IMG/VR virus record: IMGVR_UViG_3300028840_001835
Strand: one strand, 5' to 3'
DNA from: a virus
Taxonomy: Duplodnaviria; Caudoviricetes
DNA length: 64,000 bases
Part shown: piece by piece, positions 8,828 through 24,106 of the stretch
How positions within the stretch are numbered: position 1 is the stretch's first letter
Layout: every line of letters begins with the position of its first letter
The notes under the pieces: generated by a model
What the model saw: only the letters and a program-made list of their open reading frames with translations
Database searches by the model: none
Told to the model about the DNA's origin: nothing
Position numbers and translations under genes: made by a program

Positions 8828-8903
8828 TGGCTGGCAGGGAGGGCTTCGAACCCCCATCTTCCCGGTTAACAGCCGAGCGCATTACCAGTTATACTACCTG
8901 CCA
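8828..8903 (-). tRNA. tRNA-Asn(GTT)
   Basis: CTCGG-CTGTTAA-CCGGG, U1:A72, G73, CCA end. Confidence 0.92.
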
Positions 8904-9053
8904 TTTATTATATATATAATTCTAGGAGGTTTTATGTTTGAACACGCTAATGAGATAACCCCTCAGCTTCCAACCCAGAAAAAAACCAACCAGAAGAGCT
9001 ATCAGTAATGGTAGCATTTTTATCCTTTCTGTTTAGTCAAGCATATTTGATTA

Positions 9054-9082
9054 ATTGTACTATACTTTTAAACCGCTGTCAA
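9054..9082 (-). promoter_or_regulatory. Sigma70-type promoter for tRNA array
   Basis: TTGACA-N17-TACAAT. Confidence 0.75.
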
Positions 9083-9121: not shown

Positions 9122-9154
9122 AAAAGAAAAGTCCGGGAATTACCTCCCCGGACT
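9122..9154 (-). terminator. Intrinsic terminator
   Basis: AGTCCGGG/CCCGGACT stem followed by TTTCTTTT. Confidence 0.75.
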
Positions 9155-9467
9155 CATCTCCCAATAAAGATTATTCTTATACAATGGCACCTTAAACCTA
9201 GGAGAACAACTTGGTGAAGGGTGTTTTTAAACCTTTGGTTTATAGCGCCCGTCCTTCTATATCGTATTATTAATTCCCTACCTCCCTGATGCTATCCATC
9301 TATAATTTAGTTCTCAGAGCCCCGACCAACTACATGGCACCGGGGTTGTTCTGAAAGACAGTAAAAAGGATTATCCGGAACCCCTAGATACTATCTACTT
9401 GTTGGGACTGGTGGGAAACCAACACCGTTGTTGACTCCTATTTCACATACGTTAATATATGAAACTC
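9122..9467 (-). ncRNA. Candidate ~340-nt structured late ncRNA of unknown class
   Basis: Bounded by TATAAATA and a terminator, no ORF of 60 aa or more, several nested long-range helices. Confidence 0.6.
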
Positions 9468-9472
9468 TATTT

Positions 9473-9480
9473 TATTTATA
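9473..9480 (-). promoter_or_regulatory. Late promoter TATAAATA
   Basis: Exact match overlapping the stop codon of 9476..9898. Confidence 0.7.
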
Positions 9481-9898
9481 AATCAAATATATGAGGCAGA
9501 TCAGTTCTCATGTAACGCCACCTCTTATATTTCTTTTCGTATTCCTGAAACGTCATCTCCCTAAAGGGTATGGACTTTTCATCGAAAAACCTTTTCTTTA
9601 ATTTTATGAGTGATTCATACTGATACCCAAAATATACCTGAGGAAGTTCATCAGACTCGTTTCTACAATATCTTTTAAACCGATCAAATTCATTTTGATT
9701 TGCCATTGTCCTTGTCCAGAATATGAATGGGTTCTCGGTCGTCCCACCAAAATCCAAAACAAAGAAACAGCGCCATTTTTCCTCGGGCGTATTCCATGTG
9801 TGTTTGTCTGCCTCATCCTTGGTCAGATAGAAATAATTATTACCAGCCATCCAGGCCTTGAGATATGCGACACCGAAAAATCTAACATCTATAATCAT
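9476..9898 (-). CDS. Family B paralog
   Basis: DVRFFG...CFFVLDFGG...PFIFW...KLKKRFF. Confidence 0.7.
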   Translation of the reverse strand: MIIDVRFFGVAYLKAWMAGNNYFYLTKDEADKHTWNTPEEKWRCFFVLDFGGTTENPFIFWTRTMANQNEFDRFKRYCRNESDELPQVYFGYQYESLIKLKKRFFDEKSIPFREMTFQEYEKKYKRWRYMRTDLPHIFDL

Positions 9899-9913
9899 TC
9901 AAAATCCTTTCAC

Positions 9914-10345
9914 TCAAACATGCGGAACCGTGTTTTGACAGAAATCCAATTTCTTATATCTCCTCTCCCATTCTTTAATGGTGAGATTCCTAATCGGTAC
10001 ATCTTTTGTGCCAAACAATTTGAGTTTTAGTTCCATTATCATTTTCTCTACGTTACTAAATTTGCTATAACATTTATGTATCTTATCACGATTGATCAAT
10101 GCAACGCCCGCATTCTTACAGATGTTTCTCATCTTCTTTATAGTACCTGGCGTTCTATATCTCATCGACCAGAACAGATGTGGTTGTGTTGTTCCGGCAC
10201 CAAAATCCATAACAAAATAACAGTACCAATACTTCTTAAAAGCAGGACCTTCTTGCTTGTCAGATACATCCTTGCCAGCCCAGGCATTCTGCGATGCCCA
10301 ACACTCTAGGATTGCCAGACCAAAAAACTCAACATCTATCTTCAT
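9914..10345 (-). CDS. Family B paralog
   Basis: DVEFFG...CYFVMDFG...PHLFW...LKLKLFG. Confidence 0.7.
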   Translation of the reverse strand: MKIDVEFFGLAILECWASQNAWAGKDVSDKQEGPAFKKYWYCYFVMDFGAGTTQPHLFWSMRYRTPGTIKKMRNICKNAGVALINRDKIHKCYSKFSNVEKMIMELKLKLFGTKDVPIRNLTIKEWERRYKKLDFCQNTVPHV

Positions 10346-10361
10346 TTGAAAAACCTTTCAC

Positions 10362-10808
10362 TTAAATTTCATTTGGTATTTTCTGCATTGTATCTCTTAA
10401 ATTTCTATACCTATTTAACCATTCATCCTTGGTCAGATATTTTATAGGTATTGGTTCGTTTCCAAATTTCATCTTTAAGGTCGTCACCATTTTCTCTGCG
10501 ATGGAAAGCTTGCCTTGTGTATTCAATGATCTCTGATTCATTAATGCCAACCCCGGGTTCTCACATATGGCGATTAATTTCCTTACCGGATCTTGATTGG
10601 CGTACTTCTTTGACCAGAACAATATAGGGCTCTTGGTATTCCTTCCAAGATCCAGAACAAAATAACAACGACTAATCACCTGAATCGGACCATAGTAATT
10701 ATGTTTATGCTGTTCAGCACTCTCCTCTGTATCATAAACCTCATAATTACCAAACTGACCATATCCTTTATATATGGCAAACCCAAAAAACTCAACGTCT
10801 AAATTCAT
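10362..10808 (-). CDS. Family B paralog
   Basis: DVEFFG...CYFVLDLG...PILFW...LKMKFG. Confidence 0.7.
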   Translation of the reverse strand: MNLDVEFFGFAIYKGYGQFGNYEVYDTEESAEQHKHNYYGPIQVISRCYFVLDLGRNTKSPILFWSKKYANQDPVRKLIAICENPGLALMNQRSLNTQGKLSIAEKMVTTLKMKFGNEPIPIKYLTKDEWLNRYRNLRDTMQKIPNEI

Positions 10809-14153: not shown

Positions 14154-14440
14154 CCCATCGCCTGTGACAAGGCCACCACATCATTGGCCATTGTGTTAGT
14201 CTTGAATTCATGATGAAATGAAAATATCTTAAAGAACTTTCTAAGCTCGTTTTCGTTATAGACAAAAAACCTAGTCAACCCCTCCTGCCTGAATGATTCA
14301 ATACCAGATAGAAACAACAACCTCAATAACTGGACATGGATGTTACTTATATCAATGTATATGTAACCCTCCAGATGTCCAGTATAAGAGAAGTCCGTTA
14401 GATGAGGATCTCTTGCATAGAATTTACAAGCGTCCCTCAT
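14144..14440 (-). CDS. Family A paralog
   Basis: RLLFLSGI. Confidence 0.7.
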   Translation of the reverse strand: MRDACKFYARDPHLTDFSYTGHLEGYIYIDISNIHVQLLRLLFLSGIESFRQEGLTRFFVYNENELRKFFKIFSFHHEFKTNTMANDVVALSQAMGWR

Positions 14441-14853
14441 CCGTTCTGTTCTTTCAATGTTGGTTGTAAACCTTGACTATATGCCACATTCAAGAGATAC
14501 ATATACTCTGTCCATATTGTCTTGGGTTTCCATGCATCTGCAGACAACCACGGCGTTCTATTACAACCAACTCTACCAGTGTCCAAACGAATAGGACAAC
14601 CAATACAATGATCTTTATTGGATATATTCTGGTCATGCACAAACACGTTACAATAAGCACAATCCTCACCGCGTTTTGAGAATCCACCATTAACGGTTGA
14701 CCAGAGCTTAACCTCGCAACCCGTCTCCTTCGCCTCTTCGGAGAGAATCACATTTCTTCTCCAATGTTTGAGAACCCTACGGGTAAGAGAACGCATTCTG
14801 CGTTCCCCTACCTTTCGCGGCTTTTTTGTTTTATCCTTCATTCCCATCCCCAT
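14437..14853 (-). CDS. Cys-cluster hypothetical protein
   Basis: CAYC...CIGCPI...GC pattern. Confidence 0.6.
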   Translation of the reverse strand: MGMGMKDKTKKPRKVGERRMRSLTRRVLKHWRRNVILSEEAKETGCEVKLWSTVNGGFSKRGEDCAYCNVFVHDQNISNKDHCIGCPIRLDTGRVGCNRTPWLSADAWKPKTIWTEYMYLLNVAYSQGLQPTLKEQNG

Positions 14854-15134
14854 GCTCTTTGAGCACGCCAGGCGCTATCATTACAATTCGGTTTCAACCT
14901 AATCGGCTCCATGGTCTCAAACCCGAATATGATTACCGGGGCCACTATGGTCTCGACCAGGATGACGCCCCAGACGATGTTACCAATAGATGCCGAATAA
15001 TCGACACAGTCCGATCTGTACTCTCCAGAATCGAACAGGCCATAGGTCTCATACTTGAAACCATCAAGCACCTTTGGATCGGCGCATGCTGTAAGCAGGA
15101 CCACGGCAACCAGAATGGTTAAAATCTTTTTCAT
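14838..15134 (-). CDS. Lipoprotein with extra TM segment
   Basis: LLTAC lipobox; IVWGVILVETIVAPVIIFG. Confidence 0.7.
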   Translation of the reverse strand: MKKILTILVAVVLLTACADPKVLDGFKYETYGLFDSGEYRSDCVDYSASIGNIVWGVILVETIVAPVIIFGFETMEPIRLKPNCNDSAWRAQRAWGWE

Positions 15135-15158
15135 TTCTTTCTCCTTTGTTAAGTGTGG

Positions 15159-15527
15159 TTACCAGTTAATCTTTTTTATGAATGTTTCAATGAGTTTCTT
15201 ATCATATTTTATTTTTTCATTATTAAATCCTACATGGCAAGCGTAACAATATTTCCTAAGATCATCTGCAGTCTTAATGTATACGATTGTCATATCCTCC
15301 GCTTCTTCATGTTCAAGATTTGATAAAAAGAACATTCTTGAAAATGTACAATCCGACTTTACCCATGAACTATTAACATAGGTTTCCCAATGATCCCGCT
15401 TGGGATCAAACCTAAGATCAATAGTGACAGATAGACCGATTGATACCTCCACTGAGAAATCTGGATCAGATCGTTCCTCCGATCTAAGTGCTTCAAAGAA
15501 ACCGTTGGACATTAAACTCCCACTCAA
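15159..15527 (-). CDS. Family A paralog
   Basis: RMFFLSNL. Confidence 0.65.
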   Translation of the reverse strand: MSGSLMSNGFFEALRSEERSDPDFSVEVSIGLSVTIDLRFDPKRDHWETYVNSSWVKSDCTFSRMFFLSNLEHEEAEDMTIVYIKTADDLRKYCYACHVGFNNEKIKYDKKLIETFIKKINW

Positions 15528-15768
15528 AAGGTCCTGTCAAGACCATACCATTATCGGCCATCACATCATATAAGGTCTTTACAATCTTCATATCAAATTC
15601 AAAACAATGTTCATACCAAGACTTTGTAAATTTGTTTGTCGGTCTAATACCAAGAAGAAATAATTGTCGAAACAATCTTGCTCTCATATCAAGATATGTC
15701 ATATGTGCCATAATTCCACCTGGCTGTGGATATGAACATTTACCCAACAGTTTAGACATACCTCTCAT
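15493..15768 (-). CDS. Family A paralog
   Basis: RQLFLLGI. Confidence 0.6.
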   Translation of the reverse strand: MRGMSKLLGKCSYPQPGGIMAHMTYLDMRARLFRQLFLLGIRPTNKFTKSWYEHCFEFDMKIVKTLYDVMADNGMVLTGPFEWEFNVQRFL

Positions 15769-16028
15769 TCTCCTTCATCGTAATACTGGTCACTCTCTGG
15801 AACAAAGCAAAGTTCATCCAACCTTCGTATCATCTTCTTATCTCTTTCGGACTCTTTGTTGTATAGGACGACATATGTGGTGGCCGTTCCCACCCATCCA
15901 TGAAGACCAGTCAGCAAAACAAGACTGACAAATCTCTCCATGTTATATGTTCTATATCTTTTCATCCATCGTTCCATATATCTATCCCAGTTTCGGAGCC
16001 TCACGATCTGAAAAATATATGACATCAA
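15765..16028 (-). CDS. Family A paralog
   Basis: SLVLLTGLHGW; close to the next two ORFs. Confidence 0.7.
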   Translation of the reverse strand: MMSYIFQIVRLRNWDRYMERWMKRYRTYNMERFVSLVLLTGLHGWVGTATTYVVLYNKESERDKKMIRRLDELCFVPESDQYYDEGE

Positions 16029-17958: not shown

Positions 17959-18113
17959 GGCCCTCCTGTGGTGTCGATGGGGAATGTGCAGTGGCGGAGC
18001 CGCTCCTCGAGCACTTTTATTTGAATCTCGCGGTTGTTACACTCGCTTACGAATATCATCACCACGGCGAACAGGATTACAATCCATGCTATGATTAAAT
18101 CAGATTTAGTCAT
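17955..18113 (-). CDS. Small single-TM protein (52 aa)
   Basis: MTKSDLIIAWIVILFAVVMIFVSEC...; SD AAGGAAGG. Confidence 0.6.
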   Translation of the reverse strand: MTKSDLIIAWIVILFAVVMIFVSECNNREIQIKVLEERLRHCTFPIDTTGGP

Positions 18114-18140
18114 TCCTTCCTTTCATGTTTTGTTCTCAAT

Positions 18141-18172
18141 TGAAAATATACTAAAGTTTTGGACTTTGTCAA
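18141..18172 (-). promoter_or_regulatory. Early promoter driving left arm
   Basis: TTGACA-N16-TATATT; near-identical inverted copy at 22554..22585. Confidence 0.75.
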
Positions 18173-18201
18173 CCACCGGATGCTGGGGCCTTGGCGGGGT
18201 G

Positions 18202-18218
18202 GTGGCCGGGCTCTGGGT
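18202..18218. repeat. 17-bp inverted repeat, left copy
   Basis: Reverse complement is ACCCAGAGCCCGGCCAC, identical to 22452..22468. Confidence 0.75.
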
Positions 18219-18387
18219 TGTGTTTTTGATTAAAAAGAAAGGGACCGGGGTGCCTGAATGTAGGGGGTTGGAGGTGGCAGCCCGGTCCCGGTGGGTGCGG
18301 GTGTCGTTCAGTATATCTCCTAGAACGCTTTCATGCCACCCTTTGGCGGGCACCCGCTGATGTGAGATAGGATCTTCCTCGACCTTC

Positions 18388-18585
18388 TCACCATCCTATC
18401 TTCTTTGAAATTACGGCTTTCATGCCGGGGGGTAATCTGGACCCTTTTTCTTCCATCACTTGGATGAAGTATTCGCCCGTGTCCCCGATGAACATAGAAT
18501 CTCCAGACGGGGCGAAGCGGACGAGCCTAAGCATGACCTCATAGTCCATGTTGTCTATTGCCTTTTTTGTGTCTGGCGCTATCAT
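18388..18585 (-). CDS. Hypothetical protein
   Basis: 65-aa ORF, SD AAGGAG. Confidence 0.7.
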   Translation of the reverse strand: MIAPDTKKAIDNMDYEVMLRLVRFAPSGDSMFIGDTGEYFIQVMEEKGSRLPPGMKAVISKKIGW

Positions 18586-18600
18586 GTGATCTCCTTTTTA

Positions 18601-18640
18601 AAAGAAAAGATAAGGGATGAGGGAGCGACCCTCATCCCTG
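18601..18640 (-). terminator. Intrinsic terminator
   Basis: AGGGATGAGGG/CCCTCATCCCT stem followed by TATCTTTTCTTTT. Confidence 0.7.
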
Positions 18641-18867
18641 AACCATGTTACGTTGGTGGGAGGGACGGATCAATTGACTGCACAGTGCTTAACGATTATC
18701 GAGAGTCTAATGTTACAACGTGTGCACCACCCAGAGTAATCATGGTCACCGCTTTGTGAGCGGCTACTTGGTCGCCTCATCATGAACCCGCGAAAGCGGG
18801 CAGATAATAGGAAGTTTAATTATACCCCCAACTAACGACCAAGATTCCTTAAACAGAGAAAGGCCCC

Positions 18868-19047
18868 CTAGTGGAGGGAGCCATCTCGTCTTTGATACTT
18901 TCCATTACGCCGCAGAACCTCATGATAGGTCCTGGACAGCTTTTTGCCATTCTTGATAGTGGCGGTCTCCAAAACCATCCGCTTGACGGCTACGGGAAAC
19001 CCCTTCTTCATTGTCTTGGAAATAACCTTTGTCTCTATTGTTGCCAT
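18868..19047 (-). CDS. Small basic protein (59 aa)
   Basis: MATIETKVISKTMKKGFPVAVKRMVLE...; SD GGAGG; below track cutoff. Confidence 0.6.
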   Translation of the reverse strand: MATIETKVISKTMKKGFPVAVKRMVLETATIKNGKKLSRTYHEVLRRNGKYQRRDGSLH

Positions 19048-19358
19048 TCACTTAACCTCCGTTGATGTTTAATACCCCTAAAAAGACCGTTCTATATTTA
19101 GCCCACCGAACGGCAGGCGGGCCCTATTTGTCAACCGCGGGGCCGCGGCGTCCCGATTTGTTTTGTCTGGTCAGGGTGCCCAGAATTCTTTTAAATAATT
19201 AACGGCCCCCGTTAAGGTGGGGGCGAAACCTTGTCCACATTCAGGGCGGGACACACCTCTTATAAAGGGCCGTTGCCCCTTCGATGCTCTATCTACCACC
19301 AGTGCCCCGCCGACAAGAGCGATGTCGGCGGGGCGATTTGACTGGGCAGTGGCGTCCG

Positions 19359-19766
19359 CTATTTCAGGTCAGCGGTGCCCAGGTAGTTCAGGTGCTCCTC
19401 GCAGAACCTGATATTCTCACCAGAGAGGCTGGAGGCACGAACCTTGGGAACGTGGGTGAGAACCTTGTAGGCACGCCGGGCCTGGGCGCCAGAAAACTTC
19501 TGGGTCACGCCGTTGGCCGTCAGGCTAATAGTGTAACGAGGATGCTTCAGAGCCTTGGACTCTTCCTGCCGCACCTCGATCACGGCGCCAGTTTTGGTTT
19601 TCTGGGAAACGAACCGCAGTCCGCTAAGGGCATTCCCGTCCTTGTCCTTGCCCGTGACTTTCTGGGCCTTGCCCATCACGATGGTCTTGGCCTTGATGCC
19701 GTCCACGATCATCTTGGCATACTTCTGAGCGGCGGACAGGGGTTTGGGGGTTGACTTGTTGGCCAT
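19359..19766 (-). CDS. Basic early protein, first gene of leftward transcript
   Basis: 135-aa Lys/Ala-rich ORF, SD AAGGAGG, consensus promoter upstream. Confidence 0.75.
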   Translation of the reverse strand: MANKSTPKPLSAAQKYAKMIVDGIKAKTIVMGKAQKVTGKDKDGNALSGLRFVSQKTKTGAVIEVRQEESKALKHPRYTISLTANGVTQKFSGAQARRAYKVLTHVPKVRASSLSGENIRFCEEHLNYLGTADLK

Positions 19767-19828
19767 GTTGGCCTCCTTTCGGATAAAGGGTGGTTGATGA
19801 AAAAACTAATTAACTAACTGTTACTATA

Positions 19829-19857
19829 ATTATAACACGAAAAACCCTTTCCGTCAA
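19829..19857 (-). promoter_or_regulatory. Strong sigma70 promoter (leftward)
   Basis: TTGACG-N17-TATAAT with TG extension. Confidence 0.8.
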
Positions 19858-20055
19858 GAAAAAAATGGACTTTCTCCAAAAATAATTAACCCTTATTCTA
19901 GACCGTAAACCGGGGACCTGTTTCATTCATCATAACCCGTTGATCTATAAGGGCTTAGAAGGATCGGGCTCGGGCCCCGGAAATTAGCGGAATTTCGGGA
20001 CCTTCTAGATTCCTGTTTTTGATTCAAATACCGTGATCTGGGGCAGGTTTTTCCC

Positions 20056-20084
20056 TTGAGGTTTATTCAGAAGGTTGTTATAAT
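20056..20084 (+). promoter_or_regulatory. Sigma70 promoter (rightward)
   Basis: TTGAGG-N17-TATAAT; shares an inverted 14-mer GTTATAATTATAGT with the leftward promoter. Confidence 0.75.
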
Positions 20085-20121
20085 TATAGTATAAACAACA
20101 GGTTAACAAAGGAAGGAAATA

Positions 20122-20484
20122 ATGAAACTTGAACTTAACAGCATCCTCGAATGGACCACCGACTCAGGCGATAGCCAGGGAATCGTTGCCAGCCCCTTGT
20201 TTGAATATGATTTCAATAATTACCCCGATGACGCCTTTATCCCCTGCTACAAACTCAAGAGCCTGCGCAGCACCCGGACCCGTCACTGGATTGAGGTCAA
20301 GGTGATGAAGAAAAATCTCAAATGGGCGGGGTTCTACTCGAAACTTGAAAAGATACTCAATGATAGAATGGAGTATAATCGCCAGCGGGCCGCCCAACGG
20401 AGACAGGCACGGAGACGGGATTTCGACCCCGCTGCTTTCACAAGGGCTCTGAACAACACCATCAAGAAATTCAATCTGGACTAA
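20122..20484 (+). CDS. Hypothetical early protein
   Basis: 120-aa ORF, SD AAGGAAGG. Confidence 0.7.
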   Translation: MKLELNSILEWTTDSGDSQGIVASPLFEYDFNNYPDDAFIPCYKLKSLRSTRTRHWIEVKVMKKNLKWAGFYSKLEKILNDRMEYNRQRAAQRRQARRRDFDPAAFTRALNNTIKKFNLD

Positions 20485-20488
20485 TCAA

Positions 20489-20638
20489 ATGAAAGATTTT
20501 TCAATAACTATGATCGGGTTCGGGGTTGCCGCTTCTATAGGTCTCGCCGTGCCCTTCATGGTTATGTACCACGATGTTTATTTCTGTAAAATGATTTTAA
20601 CTTTAATTCAAATTAAACTCAAAACAAGGAGAGCGTAA
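20489..20638 (+). CDS. Small hydrophobic protein (49 aa)
   Basis: Fills the gap; TAATG coupling to next gene. Confidence 0.4.
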   Translation: MKDFSITMIGFGVAASIGLAVPFMVMYHDVYFCKMILTLIQIKLKTRRA

Positions 20639-20907
20639 TGAAAGAACTGGCTAAAATAGTTTCCAAGAATCTGATCGAGATGGGGGCGGACGGGTTCACC
20701 ATCGTGATCGAAAATGACTCGATTCATGTGACCAAGACCGTGGGGTTGGTGGCTTGGATTCTTATAGTCGTGCCCCAGGCTTATTCGTTAGTCAGGCGAT
20801 ATGACATGAATGTGATTCCCCTTGAACCCGAGACCGTCAAGTGCACTGGTTGTATCAAAGAGGCCATTGCCTACTACACCGGGGCCGTAATGATAGGGGG
20901 TAAATAA
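20638..20907 (+). CDS. Hypothetical protein
   Basis: 89-aa ORF, SD AGGAG. Confidence 0.65.
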   Translation: MKELAKIVSKNLIEMGADGFTIVIENDSIHVTKTVGLVAWILIVVPQAYSLVRRYDMNVIPLEPETVKCTGCIKEAIAYYTGAVMIGGK

Positions 20908-21173
20908 TGGACTTTGAACTTGAGGAAAGAAAAGAGAAGGTCAGGAACGCCCAGCGTAACCCCAACACCCTGGGGCCCAACGGGGGCTTCAAGTTAATCT
21001 GGGGCTGGGTCAAACAGGGGGCCATTGACTTCAAACAGTATTTGGAGCTGATCGATGCGGCAACCCCTACCACGGAGCTTTACGAATACAACTGCCCCGC
21101 CTGTAAATGTACGACCACTTTAAAATGTGACCACTGCGGGGACATTATCTTAATTAAAGGGAGGCAGATATGA
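20907..21173 (+). CDS. Zinc-ribbon-containing protein
   Basis: CPAC...CDHC at C-terminus. Confidence 0.65.
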   Translation: MDFELEERKEKVRNAQRNPNTLGPNGGFKLIWGWVKQGAIDFKQYLELIDAATPTTELYEYNCPACKCTTTLKCDHCGDIILIKGRQI

Positions 21174-21409
21174 GAAAACCAACAATCTATGACATAGCCA
21201 GGGCGACCGAGGAGAAGCAGCCCCATTTCTTCACCCGAAAAACTCTCAAGTTCTTCAACCAGACTATGAGGGATTTCTCAGTCTGGAAGCAGGACGGTCG
21301 GGTGTTCATCACCGCCCCAATGAAAGATGGCCGCGGGCACATAATCGGTTATACTCACCGCGAGTTCACCGGGGATGATCTTATTCATTTTAACCCAGAG
21401 GAGGTATAA
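21170..21409 (+). CDS. Hypothetical protein
   Basis: 79-aa ORF, PHFFTRKTLKFF. Confidence 0.65.
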   Translation: MRKPTIYDIARATEEKQPHFFTRKTLKFFNQTMRDFSVWKQDGRVFITAPMKDGRGHIIGYTHREFTGDDLIHFNPEEV

Positions 21410-21410
21410 C

Positions 21411-21638
21411 ATGAACCTGAAAGTTAAAGCAAAGGTGGGGATCGGTTATGATTACAAAAAGAATGAATATGTGGAGGGGATGAAGGAGGTCGAGGTCCTG
21501 ACCATCCATTTCGAGAAGAACACGATGCGGGTCCGCTATAAGGCAGACTTCTGGGGGGATGGTGTGAGGACCCATGTGGACAACATCCCCGCGGACCCGT
21601 TCTTTGAGCAGTATCAAATAAACAAAAAGGAGGCGTAA
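21411..21638 (+). CDS. Hypothetical protein
   Basis: Start MNLKVK after SD GGAGG. Confidence 0.6.
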   Translation: MNLKVKAKVGIGYDYKKNEYVEGMKEVEVLTIHFEKNTMRVRYKADFWGDGVRTHVDNIPADPFFEQYQINKKEA

Positions 21639-21639
21639 A

Positions 21640-21882
21640 ATGATGACACCAAGAGACCCTGATTTTCTGGACCCCGAAATAACCCCAGACCCCATGCAGC
21701 CCGAGTTCTTATTGAGGGCTGGCATGAGCCCCACCCGGACCCCGAAGCTCTGGAGCCTCTTTACGGGCGAGACCCAGGGGAGCCGGGAGCGCGGTCACAT
21801 CACAAGGGACGACATGACCAACCTCAAGATATCCCTGGGCATCACCGAGTCTGTGGATGATTTTCTCAAACAATTAAACTAA
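21640..21882 (+). CDS. Hypothetical protein
   Basis: 80-aa ORF, SD AGGAGG. Confidence 0.65.
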   Translation: MMTPRDPDFLDPEITPDPMQPEFLLRAGMSPTRTPKLWSLFTGETQGSRERGHITRDDMTNLKISLGITESVDDFLKQLN

Positions 21883-21892
21883 GGGGATCAAA

Positions 21893-22174
21893 ATGGAAAC
21901 AATAATCTGGTATAGTATAAGAAATGGTGGGGATGGTTCTGCATTTCCCATCTTTTTTGAATCAAAAGAACTTGCCGAGATCGACCAGGAATATCTGGAC
22001 GAAGGATGGGGCGAGTCTTGCGTTGGTCCCTTGATGATAACTTCCGATGGTCCCATCTCAATAAAGCCGTTCATGACCCAGGAAGATTACATTAAAGAGA
22101 TCGAGGAAGAACTGGAGTATGCGGAATCAGGAAAACTAAGAGAGAAACTTCAGAAAGTAATCGACCTTTATTAA
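21893..22174 (+). CDS. Acidic hypothetical protein
   Basis: 93-aa ORF, NGGDGSAFP...EGWGE. Confidence 0.7.
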   Translation: METIIWYSIRNGGDGSAFPIFFESKELAEIDQEYLDEGWGESCVGPLMITSDGPISIKPFMTQEDYIKEIEEELEYAESGKLREKLQKVIDLY

Positions 22175-22185
22175 AGGAGAACATC

Positions 22186-22353
22186 ATGACAAAAGAAGAG
22201 GCTATTAATTACTGTTATAATCACAGGGATGAATACATTCGGGACTCCGAAAACATTGATCAGGGGATCCGGCAATTCGATTGTCTTATCGCCTGCCTCG
22301 AGTCCGGGACCATAACCCCAGAACAGCTCCCGGACTACGGAATGGAATACTAA
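22186..22353 (+). CDS. Hypothetical protein (55 aa)
   Basis: MTKEEAINYC...; SD AAGGAG; below track cutoff. Confidence 0.6.
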   Translation: MTKEEAINYCYNHRDEYIRDSENIDQGIRQFDCLIACLESGTITPEQLPDYGMEY

Positions 22354-22451
22354 TCGACCTATAATCTAAAGACCCACACACCGCTGATACGCCTCGTATC
22401 AGCGGCCGGGAGCCCGCGCCCCGACCACCATCATTTAAAGCAAGACTCCCC

Positions 22452-22468
22452 ACCCAGAGCCCGGCCAC
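22452..22468. repeat. 17-bp inverted repeat, right copy
   Basis: ACCCAGAGCCCGGCCAC. Confidence 0.75.
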
Positions 22469-22553
22469 ACCCGCAGTTCTCGCTATGGGGACCCCCTTTA
22501 AAACGACCAGCTTTCAACGATTAGGTCCAAAAGTGAGGTCCAAAGAAACTAGC

Positions 22554-22585
22554 TTGACAAAGTCCAAATCTTTACTATGTTTTCA
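22554..22585 (+). promoter_or_regulatory. Early promoter driving right arm
   Basis: TTGACA-N16-TATGTT; near-identical to 18141..18172. Confidence 0.75.
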
Positions 22586-22605
22586 TTAAGAAAGGAGAAC
22601 CCGTT

Positions 22606-22881
22606 ATGACAAACGAAAAAGATCCATGCAACCCGGGTTGCAGTTCATGCAGAAGCAACGATACTGGTCGCTGTAAAAAAACCGCATTCATTGTACATAG
22701 ACCCCATGGCGATGAAACTGTGATGCACTATTGCAGGGATGCGAACAAGAATCGCCAGTGCAAGGACTGGGAGCCACGGACCGTCATGCAGAAACTCGGG
22801 CCCGTCTTAGGGGCCATTGGTCTCTTTGTCGGCGTCCCCGGTGTAATAGTATTATTCTCAGTTCTTGTGGCAGGGCTCTGA
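22606..22881 (+). CDS. Cys-rich protein with C-terminal TM helix
   Basis: CSSC...C...C...C then a hydrophobic tail; SD AAGGAG. Confidence 0.65.
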   Translation: MTNEKDPCNPGCSSCRSNDTGRCKKTAFIVHRPHGDETVMHYCRDANKNRQCKDWEPRTVMQKLGPVLGAIGLFVGVPGVIVLFSVLVAGL

Positions 22882-23068
22882 GATTCAGGGGTGGTCTCGC
22901 AAAATATGGCCCTCGCCGGAGACACGCCGAAATGGTACCGTGGCCGCAGTCATTTCACCCTGATATCCCGGTCCAGGGCAGCCCAGGGCGGTCCTCCGGG
23001 ATATGGACTGATCGGACAGCCGCCGGACCGGTTATTTGGGGTTTTGAGTTATTGAAAGGAGATTCATC

Positions 23069-23380
23069 TTGATTCCTGATTTAAGATTTAAAGTAGTCAC
23101 GGCCACAAGCTGGTTCTTTTACACGGGTTCTGGTTTATGGAGATTGGAGGCTACTTATGAACTCTCTAAACTCTTGTTCCTTAAGGGTATGGGATCTGGG
23201 AGACCCTCAAAAATATCAACATTTTACATATACAATAATCTTGAGGTTGATATGATGCTTGAGATTATTATTCTTTTTCATGAAACGGGTATTACTATAT
23301 TCTCTGGAGGGGGACATTGGGTTCCTTCTTTTATTTCTGCTTATAAACGGCTGGGTGAATGTGAATATGGCACACTTTGA
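23069..23380 (+). CDS. Family A paralog
   Basis: KLLFLKGM. Confidence 0.65.
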   Translation: MIPDLRFKVVTATSWFFYTGSGLWRLEATYELSKLLFLKGMGSGRPSKISTFYIYNNLEVDMMLEIIILFHETGITIFSGGGHWVPSFISAYKRLGECEYGTL

Positions 23381-23678
23381 TATAAGTTGGGACGATGGAA
23401 GGATTGATGCAACACGGATGCTCTATGTGAGGTCTAATTATGATGGGGGCTTTATGATTATCTGTTTCGATGAGAGGGTGGGGAGATTGGCTTTTCTAAA
23501 GGGGTTCCGGGTTGGTTCAAGGAGACAGCGATGGGCAAGATATGATTTGAATTACGATGAGATGTTAGAGATGGTGGGGTTCTGTCGTCTTGTCTGTCCC
23601 GGGGTCTATCTCGCAGATGGAGAATATGGGACGGGGCTGGGGAGGGCCCTGCGGGCCGCCCTGGGAGGGCGGATCTAG
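23367..23678 (+). CDS. Family A paralog
   Basis: RLAFLKGF; start moved to MAHFD. Confidence 0.7.
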   Translation: MAHFDISWDDGRIDATRMLYVRSNYDGGFMIICFDERVGRLAFLKGFRVGSRRQRWARYDLNYDEMLEMVGFCRLVCPGVYLADGEYGTGLGRALRAALGGRI

Positions 23679-23788
23679 GGGGGGTCTATGCAAGTGGGAG
23701 CGGGAGACTGAGACCTTTATGGAGAAGCGGAAGAGGGAGAAGGCGATTAATAAGAAACTGAAGTATCGGGCGATCTCTGAGAGGAGTT

Positions 23789-24106
23789 GTGAGGGTGCCA
23801 CAGAGACGGGTTCACAAGAATAACGCCGAGATATATTTGGACATATTCGATAGAGAATGGAACTGGGTGGCTACACTGTTCCCGTGGATTGGGGAGCATG
23901 GTGTCATAAGGGTCGGTCATGGTGCGGCTCGGGAACCTCTGAGGCGTATCTGTTTTCTACGAGGTCTGAAGTATGATGATAGAATTGATTACCCGATGGA
24001 CATATACCTGAAGGAGGGGCATGGTATCAAAAAATTTCTTAGTGATGTAAGATGGACTTATAAAGGAGAAAAAAGAATTGATGGAAAGGAGATGAAAAAT
24101 GATTGA
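23789..24106 (+). CDS. Family A paralog
   Basis: RICFLRGL. Confidence 0.65.
   Translation: MRVPQRRVHKNNAEIYLDIFDREWNWVATLFPWIGEHGVIRVGHGAAREPLRRICFLRGLKYDDRIDYPMDIYLKEGHGIKKFLSDVRWTYKGEKRIDGKEMKND

What the first reader, a model, noticed from the sequence alone, without database searches (positions are those of the whole stretch)
9122..9480. Unassigned ~340-nt structured RNA transcribed from its own late promoter
Seen (minus strand): TATAAATA overlapping the upstream stop (the same arrangement as the tmRNA), no ORF, and a terminator at the 3' end. Nested long-range helices include TAGGAG/CTCCTA (9435-9440 with 9199-9204), AACAAC/GTTGTT, GGTG/CACC, then TTCCC-ACC-TCCC with GGGA-GGT-GGGAA, with an AU-rich ~50-nt asymmetric bubble and apical hairpins (TCAGA..CCCCG/CGGGG..TCTGA). 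I cannot match it to RNase P, SRP or an intron core. Inference: a rod with a central bubble resembles 6S RNA, so it may be a late RNA decoy that sequesters host sigma70 polymerase to shut off early and host transcription.
Basis: partly seen in the sequence, partly recalled or inferred. Interest (0 to 1): 0.75.

Follow-up and report, generated by a model that had tools for sequence, protein, structure and literature searches.

The report
Orphan folded RNA gene in phage
A large uncultured T4-like phage carries a gene-sized, protein-free stretch that looks like a separately transcribed, tightly folded RNA of about 340 bases; it matches no known RNA family, no relative was found, and the proposed 6S-like role has no support.

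Summary
The described features are present on the minus strand at 9480-9122. They are a TATAAATA box overlapping the upstream stop codon, about 340 non-coding bases, the listed long-range helices and an intrinsic terminator.

The fold is better than chance. The MFE z-score is -4.2 (0 of 300 shuffles), the lowest of 143 same-size windows across the 64 kb window, and the ensemble is unusually well defined. The stretch lies in the longest non-coding gap of a compact genome and is G+C-richer than ordinary spacers. No frame opens, even with a reassigned stop codon.

New here: the exact 16-mer TTTGATTTATAAATAA occurs only twice in the window, before this RNA and before the phage tmRNA. It sits in different reading frames of the two upstream genes. 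This points to a real RNA transcription unit.

Limits:
- No Rfam 15 family matches (6S, RNase P, SRP, introns, GOLLD/ROOL included).
- No homologue turned up in any collection searched.
- The one syntenic relative (L005) lacks the element.
- No RNA-seq run is available, so there is no covariation or expression evidence.

The fold is branched and about twice 6S length, so the 6S reading is unsupported. The closest analogues are the T4 late stable RNAs RNA C and RNA D, whose function is unknown. The scan had noted this same stretch in an overlapping window (e1-5368955) and a comparable orphan RNA in another phage tRNA operon (e1-3386770).

The parts
9472..9487 (-). Extended promoter box TTTGATTTATAAATAA. 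It contains the T4-type late box TATAAATA (9480-9473) and overlaps the stop codon (9478-9476) of the upstream gene.
   Evidence: 11 TATAAATA boxes against 4.75 expected, 10 of them on the minus strand; most boxes sit 15-30 nt before an SD+ATG, or 4-16 nt before the tmRNA or a tRNA; the exact 16-mer occurs only at 9472-9487 and at 293-308 (before the tmRNA), in different reading frames of the two upstream genes.
9441..9467 (-). Inferred transcript start (G at about 9467, six bases after the box by T4 spacing), followed at once by a 10-bp 5' hairpin (9464-9441).
   Evidence: The hairpin has pair probability 0.84. The start site is inferred from T4 late-promoter geometry and was not measured.
9199..9440 (-). 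Core domain of 242 nt. Closing helices are UAGGAG/CUCCUA and AACAAC/GUUGUU. A 12-bp interrupted helix (9417-9404 with 9286-9274) leads to a junction bearing three hairpins (9395-9357, 9356-9312, 9300-9288).
   Evidence: MFE -75.8 kcal/mol, z -3.35, most helices with pair probability 0.83-0.99. Of 111 pairs in the whole transcript, 14 are G-U, which favours folding of the minus-strand RNA.
9217..9273 (-). A/U-rich 3' side of the asymmetric internal loop (about 57-63 nt). It holds a small UAAACC/GGUUUA hairpin and faces only about 9 nt on the 5' side.
   Evidence: the small hairpin has probability 0.97. Pairings on either side of it are weak (0.3-0.8).
9162..9198 (-). Mostly unpaired A/U-rich 3' tail between the core and the terminator.
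   Evidence: only low-probability pairs in this segment.
9122..9161 (-). Intrinsic terminator: extended stem with its core at 9155-9129 (11 bp, 6 G-C, 5-nt loop), then a T-run.
   Evidence: terminator scan; pair probability 0.98.
9476..9898 (-). Upstream 140-aa gene, the last of three tandem paralogues (also 9914-10345 and 10362-10808) of unknown function.
   Evidence: The AlphaFold model has pLDDT 83.9 and no convincing fold match.
9054..9082 (-). Sigma70-type promoter TTGACA-17-TACAAT (11 of 12 matches). It restarts transcription after the terminator, toward a 31-aa ORF (9017..8922) and tRNA-Asn (8903..8828).
   Evidence: A promoter lies at the equivalent place in the syntenic relative L005.

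Best explanation
This is a stand-alone gene for a stable, compactly folded non-coding RNA of about 340 nt, belonging to a large uncultured T4-like phage from marine sediment or seawater.

Shown by sequence:
- The unit is non-coding and folds significantly better than chance on the minus strand.
- It begins with a late-type promoter box and ends in an intrinsic terminator.
- The following tRNA array has its own sigma70-type promoter.

Inferred:
- Transcription starts at about 9467 from the TATAAATA box. This box is an extended 16-nt version that the phage otherwise uses only for its tmRNA gene.
- The RNA ends at the T-run at about 9124.
- It is protected by a 5' hairpin and the 3' terminator hairpin.
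- It acts in trans through its shape, as a protein-binding scaffold or decoy in the RNA and translation toolkit this phage group carries (tRNAs, tmRNA, RNA-repair enzymes in relatives). It probably does not act by base pairing.

The target is unknown.
For: - Non-coding in every frame, even with a stop codon reassigned. It is not a decayed copy of the neighbouring paralogues, and its stop-free stretches match no PHROG family.
- Fold: z -4.2, 0/300 shuffles, the lowest of 143 genomic windows, with a well-defined ensemble. The minus strand folds better than the plus strand, and 14 pairs are G-U.
- Genome context: it lies in the longest non-coding gap of the window (572 nt against a median spacer of 14.5 nt). 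Its G+C is 0.40-0.44 against 0.20-0.29 for short spacers.
- Transcription signals: a terminator; a strand-consistent, roughly 2.3-fold enriched TATAAATA box; and an exact 16-mer shared only with the tmRNA promoter region, in different coding frames. My estimate for such a match arising by chance among the 55 box pairs is about 1e-3.
- No excess complementarity to the rest of the window: two 12-mers against about 4 expected. This argues against an antisense role within these 64 kb.
- Precedent: T4 RNA C and RNA D are late RNAs of unknown function (PMC9697503). That their genes lie in the T4 tRNA cluster is from my own knowledge.
Against: - No homologue was found, so there is no covariation. Searches that returned nothing:
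  - GenBank phages;
  - IMG/VR;
  - JGI metagenomes;
  - GTDB genomes;
  - E. coli genomes;
  - a covariance model run over about 186 kb of related contigs.
- The only syntenic relative (L005) goes straight from the paralogue's stop to the sigma70-type promoter, with no such element. The RNA is therefore dispensable in that lineage or a recent acquisition.
- The core alone has a moderate z of about -3, roughly 2 sd from the genomic background.
- The promoter and the start site are inferred only.
Confidence: 0.5

Rival explanations
1. It is a cis-acting end piece of the upstream operon: a long structured 3' UTR plus terminator. It would stabilise the mRNA of the small-gene array and insulate it from the tRNA array. 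The TATAAATA box would then be incidental or only weakly used.
For: The element directly follows a long co-directional gene array and ends in a strong terminator. A sigma70-type promoter restarts transcription immediately afterwards. The relative L005 has the same gene-to-promoter-to-tRNA layout without the element, so it is not needed as a separate gene there.
Against: A terminator hairpin alone would do this job, and about 300 extra well-folded bases are unexplained. The exact 16-nt box shared only with the tmRNA gene argues for its own initiation. The genome is otherwise very compact.
Confidence: 0.2
2. It is a non-functional remnant, such as the scar of an inserted or decayed element, whose fold is fortuitous.
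For: It is an orphan and is absent at the syntenic site of L005. A 13-nt inverted repeat with 12 of 13 matches (9478-9490 with 9043-9055) brackets the unit together with the downstream promoter.
Against: No protein remnant is detectable. It has the best fold score in the window with a well-defined ensemble. Its G+C is above spacer level. Promoter box and terminator are intact. The inverted repeat is A/T-rich and of borderline significance, and its right arm lies immediately downstream of the -10 hexamer of a promoter that L005 also has at the equivalent place.
Confidence: 0.17
3. It is a 6S-like late decoy. The RNA would mimic an open promoter, sequester host sigma70 holoenzyme and be released by pRNA synthesis.
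For: Only a loose resemblance: a closing helix, an internal loop and a further helix, together with a late-type promoter box.
Against: The 6S covariance model gives no match at E<=10. The RNA is nearly twice 6S length. Its apical domain is branched, and the loop is extremely asymmetric, about 9 nt facing about 63 nt. My two literature searches did not surface a phage-encoded 6S RNA.
Confidence: 0.06
4. It is a leader or attenuator: a sensing RNA whose terminator gates read-through from the late promoter into the tRNA array.
For: It combines a promoter box, a long structured leader and a terminator upstream of the tRNA genes. A CCCCGG segment (9345-9340) could pair with the 5' arm of the terminator.
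Against: No riboswitch or T-box model matches. The terminator helix has pair probability 0.98 with no competing fold. The array has its own strong promoter downstream of the terminator.
Confidence: 0.07

Closest known systems
T4 RNA C and RNA D (rnaC, rnaD; 'species 1 and 2' stable RNAs)
   Same: They are non-coding RNAs of a T4-type phage, classified as late RNAs, with function still unknown (PMC9697503). From my own knowledge, their genes lie in the T4 tRNA cluster, as this element lies at the head of the tRNA array.
   Different: They are about 120-140 nt (my own knowledge) against about 340 nt here. No sequence similarity to any GenBank phage was found. This RNA has its own terminator and lies outside the tRNA precursor rather than being processed from it.
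6S RNA (Rfam RF00013)
   Same: It is a stable non-coding RNA with long-range closing helices and an internal loop. A late or stationary-type decoy logic is conceivable.
   Different: The model does not match. The fold is branched with three branch points, the loop is very asymmetric, and the length is about 1.8 times that of 6S. Binding and pRNA synthesis are untested.
The phage's own tmRNA gene (window 1 to about 285, minus strand)
   Same: Both have the identical 16-nt promoter box overlapping the upstream gene's stop codon. Both are similar in size and are structured non-coding RNAs.
   Different: This RNA has no tRNA-like domain and no tag reading frame. Neither ARAGORN nor the Rfam tmRNA model detects it.
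Large ornate phage-associated RNAs (GOLLD, ROOL), which from my own knowledge often sit near tRNA genes
   Same: A large, multi-branched, phage-borne RNA of unknown function next to tRNA genes.
   Different: The Rfam models do not match, and this RNA is much smaller (about 340 nt against about 580-800 nt, from my own knowledge). No family of relatives is available to show conservation.

Membership tests
6S RNA (RF00013) | Match to the 6S covariance model | tested here: not met
   No 6S hit at the gathering score, nor at E<=10 with lax filters on 801 nt and 311 nt.
6S RNA (RF00013) | A single extended rod of about 180-200 nt: closing stem, large central bubble, terminal stem-loop | tested here: not met
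   The transcript is about 346 nt. The MFE, MEA and centroid structures have three branch points and a three-hairpin junction. The loop is about 9 nt facing about 63 nt.
6S RNA (RF00013) | Binds sigma70 holoenzyme and templates pRNA synthesis | not testable with these tools
   Needs EMSA and in vitro transcription.
T4 RNA C / RNA D | Located beside or within the tRNA gene cluster of a T4-type phage | tested here: met
   22 tRNA genes lie at 8903-3010 directly downstream. T4-type late boxes are present.
T4 RNA C / RNA D | Sequence or size similarity to rnaC/rnaD | tested here: not met
   blastn with word size 11 against 50,697 phage records, which I assume include T4, found no match. The size is about 340 nt against about 120-140 nt.
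T4 RNA C / RNA D | Accumulates late in infection as a stable RNA | not testable with these tools
   No RNA run is listed for this DNA. Only a promoter box is seen.
RNase P RNA / SRP RNA / tmRNA / tRNA / group I-II introns / T-box / GOLLD / ROOL / OLE / HEARO | Match to the family's covariance model | tested here: not met
   None of the 4227 Rfam 15 models reaches E<=10 on the RNA body. The weak hits were to the terminator only. ARAGORN finds nothing there.
T4-type late transcription unit | TATAAATA box at the right distance upstream of the product | tested here: met
   The box is at 9480-9473. Boxes are enriched (11 against 4.75 expected), 10 of 11 are on the minus strand, and most sit just upstream of genes or RNAs. 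Use of this particular box is not shown.
Conserved structured RNA (any family) | Homologues with compensatory base changes | tested here: inconclusive
   No homologue was found in any collection, and covariance model R1 finds only itself. Covariation therefore cannot be assessed.

The most novel reading that the evidence does not exclude
This could be the first member of an undescribed class of phage stable RNA: a late-expressed, compactly folded RNA of about 340 nt, co-regulated with the phage's tmRNA through a dedicated 16-nt promoter box. It would act on a host or phage protein machine (translation, RNA repair or RNA polymerase) as a scaffold or decoy.
Probability: 0.3. Interest if true: 0.65.

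Novelty: new variant of a known kind. Interest (0 to 1): 0.4.

Why it matters
Large phages with tRNA arrays, tmRNA and RNA-repair genes are increasingly seen as carrying their own RNA toolkit. The functions of their extra stable RNAs remain unknown, and T4 RNA C and RNA D have stayed unexplained for about 50 years.

A well-folded 340-nt RNA that shares a private promoter box with the tmRNA gene would be a concrete new candidate for that toolkit. It would also be a handle for asking what late stable RNAs do.

As it stands, it is a single-sequence candidate in an uncultured phage. Its value depends on finding relatives or transcripts.

Tried and rejected
Searches for relatives of the RNA, all negative:
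- blastn and megablast against GenBank phages.
- A 21-mer in IMG/VR.
- 20-mers in GTDB genome contigs and JGI metagenome contigs.
- blastn against E. coli genomes, to look for mimicry of a host stable RNA.
- nhmmer and blastn against the window itself and all fetched loci.
- Covariance model R1 of the core, run on about 186 kb of loci. With filters off on L005 and L010, the best hit was 14 bits inside a ligase gene. A larger filters-off run failed internally.

Searches through neighbouring proteins:
- The upstream gene has no relative in phages, IMG/VR or the 5.8-billion-protein set.
- A profile of the three paralogues found 15 relatives. Their contigs are short or lack the RNA.
- The metagenome scan with that profile found nothing.
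- Relatives found through DUF2493 do not have the RNA. These are L007/L010 (a 205-kb phage) and L011.

Other checks:
- The whole-genome handle is not available.
- Expression: no RNA holder was listed for this DNA.
- Hidden ORF under recoding: rejected.
- Decayed paralogue or other protein remnant: rejected.
- Antisense targets within the window: no excess.
- The relative's tmRNA has no TATAAATA box, and the 13-base core of the 16-mer box (TGATTTATAAATA) is absent from all fetched loci, so it could not be used to find analogous RNA genes.
- RNase P idea: from memory, two segments resemble the P4 strands. I rejected this because the order is permuted, one segment is simply the terminator stem, and no RNase P model matches.
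- Fold of the neighbouring 140-aa protein: a confident model, but no significant structural match.

Full report
**Context**

The window is part of a contig of about 202 kb from sediment and seawater metagenomes. It belongs to a T4-like large phage. The window holds:
- 22 tRNA genes;
- a tmRNA gene at its left edge;
- a PurA/PurZ-like gene and a DNA ligase, plus a glycan-synthesis cluster;
- TATAAATA boxes placed like T4 late promoters.

The nearest isolated phages share only about 31-35% protein identity.

**Observation**

On the minus strand, the 140-aa gene 9898..9476 ends in a TAA that lies inside TATAAATA (9480-9473). About 340 bases follow with no ORF of 30 codons or more. All three frames contain TAA, TAG and TGA. 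Stop-codon recoding, which earlier notes on this genome raised because of a suppressor tRNA, therefore cannot rescue a gene.

The stretch ends in an intrinsic terminator at 9155-9129 plus a T-run. A near-consensus sigma70-type promoter (9082-9054) follows. After it come a 31-codon hydrophobic ORF and tRNA-Asn.

The overall shape, however, is branched:
- a 5' hairpin;
- two closing helices;
- a very asymmetric internal loop;
- an interrupted 12-bp helix;
- a junction with three hairpins;
- an A/U-rich tail and the terminator.

**Is it more than chance?**

- The transcript has an MFE z of -4.2 (0/100 and 0/300 shuffles). The 242-nt core alone scores -3.35/-3.05.
- As a genomic control I scored 142 windows of the same length along the same strand. 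Their mean z is -0.58 with sd 1.36. The target is the most negative and beats windows containing tRNAs and the tmRNA.
- The ensemble is unusually well defined: diversity is matched or beaten by 6/300 shuffles, positional entropy by 3/300.
- The opposite strand folds less well. Of 111 pairs, 14 are G-U. Both points favour an RNA-level fold on the minus strand.
- The element lies in the longest non-coding gap of the 64 kb (572 nt against a median of 14.5 nt). Its G+C is 0.40-0.44, while ordinary short spacers have 0.20-0.29.
- It is not a decayed fourth copy of the three tandem paralogues upstream: profile scores are negative. Its stop-free stretches match no PHROG family.

**A new point in favour of a real RNA gene**

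The similarity goes further. The exact 16-mer TTTGATTTATAAATAA occurs only twice in the window, at 9472-9487 and at 293-308, both on the minus strand.

The first copy reads ..TTT GAT TTA TAA in its upstream gene. The second reads ..TTG ATT TAT AAA TAA. The shared bases are therefore not explained by coding. None of the other nine TATAAATA boxes has this extension. I estimate about 1e-3 for such a match arising by chance among the 55 pairs of boxes.

With T4 spacing, initiation would fall on the G at about 9467, two bases before a stable 5' hairpin. For the tmRNA it would fall at about the mature 5' end. These start sites are inferred, not measured.

**What it is not**

No Rfam 15 family matches. 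This holds at gathering thresholds over the whole window and at E<=10 with lax filters on 801 nt and on 311 nt. The only weak hits cover the terminator.

That excludes, at this sensitivity:
- 6S, RNase P, SRP and tmRNA;
- tRNA-like RNAs;
- group I and II introns;
- T-box and riboswitches;
- GOLLD, ROOL, OLE and HEARO.

There are no internal tandem repeats and no paralogue in the window. There is also no excess complementarity to other transcripts of the window.

**Search for relatives**

Nothing similar exists in any collection I could search:
- GenBank phages;
- IMG/VR;
- GTDB genomes;
- JGI metagenomes;
- E. coli genomes.

The upstream gene is itself an orphan in 5.8 billion proteins.

A profile of the three paralogues found 15 distant relatives. 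One of them, contig L005, is syntenic. It runs paralogue, sigma70-type promoter, small ORF, TATAAATA, tRNA-Asn(GTT) twice, tRNA-Pro(TGG). There the paralogue's stop is followed after about 20 nt by the promoter, so the RNA is absent.

A 205-kb relative (L007/L010) has a tRNA array, tmRNA, a PurA-like gene, DUF2493 and Ro60. It has no homologue in the roughly 30 kb I could read.

A covariance model of the core finds only itself in about 186 kb of such loci. No RNA sequencing run is listed. Covariation and expression therefore remain untested.

**Interpretation**

The best-supported reading is a stand-alone, probably late-transcribed, stable structured RNA gene of an undescribed family (confidence about 0.5). 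It would act through its shape rather than by base pairing, on an unknown target.

The alternatives are:
- a structured 3' end or insulator of the upstream operon (0.2);
- a non-functional remnant (0.17);
- an attenuator (0.07);

The 6S reading fails the model match and the architecture, and cannot be tested for binding here.

The closest known analogues are T4 RNA C and RNA D, which are late RNAs of unknown function (PMC9697503). From my own knowledge, their genes lie in the T4 tRNA cluster. This RNA shares their placement and likely timing, but not their sequence or size.

**Verdict**

This is a credible but unproven orphan RNA gene. Interest is moderate, because all the evidence comes from a single sequence.

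Noticed in passing
window 8922-9017 (-), with 8998-9015 (+): Right after the RNA's terminator, a near-consensus sigma70-type promoter drives a 31-codon, strongly hydrophobic ORF. A terminator-like hairpin on the opposite strand lies inside the start of that ORF. This is reminiscent of a type I toxin with an antisense RNA.
   Followed up: no
window 9478-9490 and 9043-9055: A 13-nt inverted repeat (12 of 13 matches) brackets the whole unit, including the downstream promoter. It is A/T-rich and may be chance. It could also mark an old insertion, since the relative L005 lacks the unit.
   Followed up: partly
window 9383-9424 (-): The UAGGAG of the closing helix is followed 9 nt later by GTG and a 13-codon frame ending at TAG. 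The Shine-Dalgarno-like bases are paired in the predicted fold. The frame is too short to explain the interval.
   Followed up: no
L005:6335-6750 and L005:3832-4107: The related phage contig carries tRNA-shaped genes with large insertions, for example a 104-nt Rfam tRNA hit at 6437-6540 and a tRNA-like gene of about 180 nt after it. These lie next to an RtcB RNA ligase gene.
   Followed up: partly
L007:13861-14266 and 14266-15882: The 205-kb relative encodes a Ro60 (TROVE) protein with a vWA domain. A 405-nt gene-free stretch precedes it, which is a likely place for a Y-RNA-like partner.
   Followed up: no
L010:9354-9433: ARAGORN calls a tRNA with anticodon CTA (amber-reading) in the relative's tRNA array. 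This hints at TAG read-through or recoding in this phage group.
   Followed up: no
window 18000-24000: This block has a G+C of 0.48-0.51 (elsewhere mostly 0.34-0.44, up to 0.49 near the left edge) and few long ORFs. A 359-nt window starting at 18451 has the second-lowest fold z (-4.2).
   Followed up: no
window 9476-10808 (-): Three tandem paralogues (31-33% identical) belong to a small family found only in related metagenomic phages. In several of those phages the gene sits next to a PNKP-type RNA-repair gene and a sigma factor gene. The confident AlphaFold model has no significant structural match, only faint RNase H-fold-like rows.
   Followed up: partly
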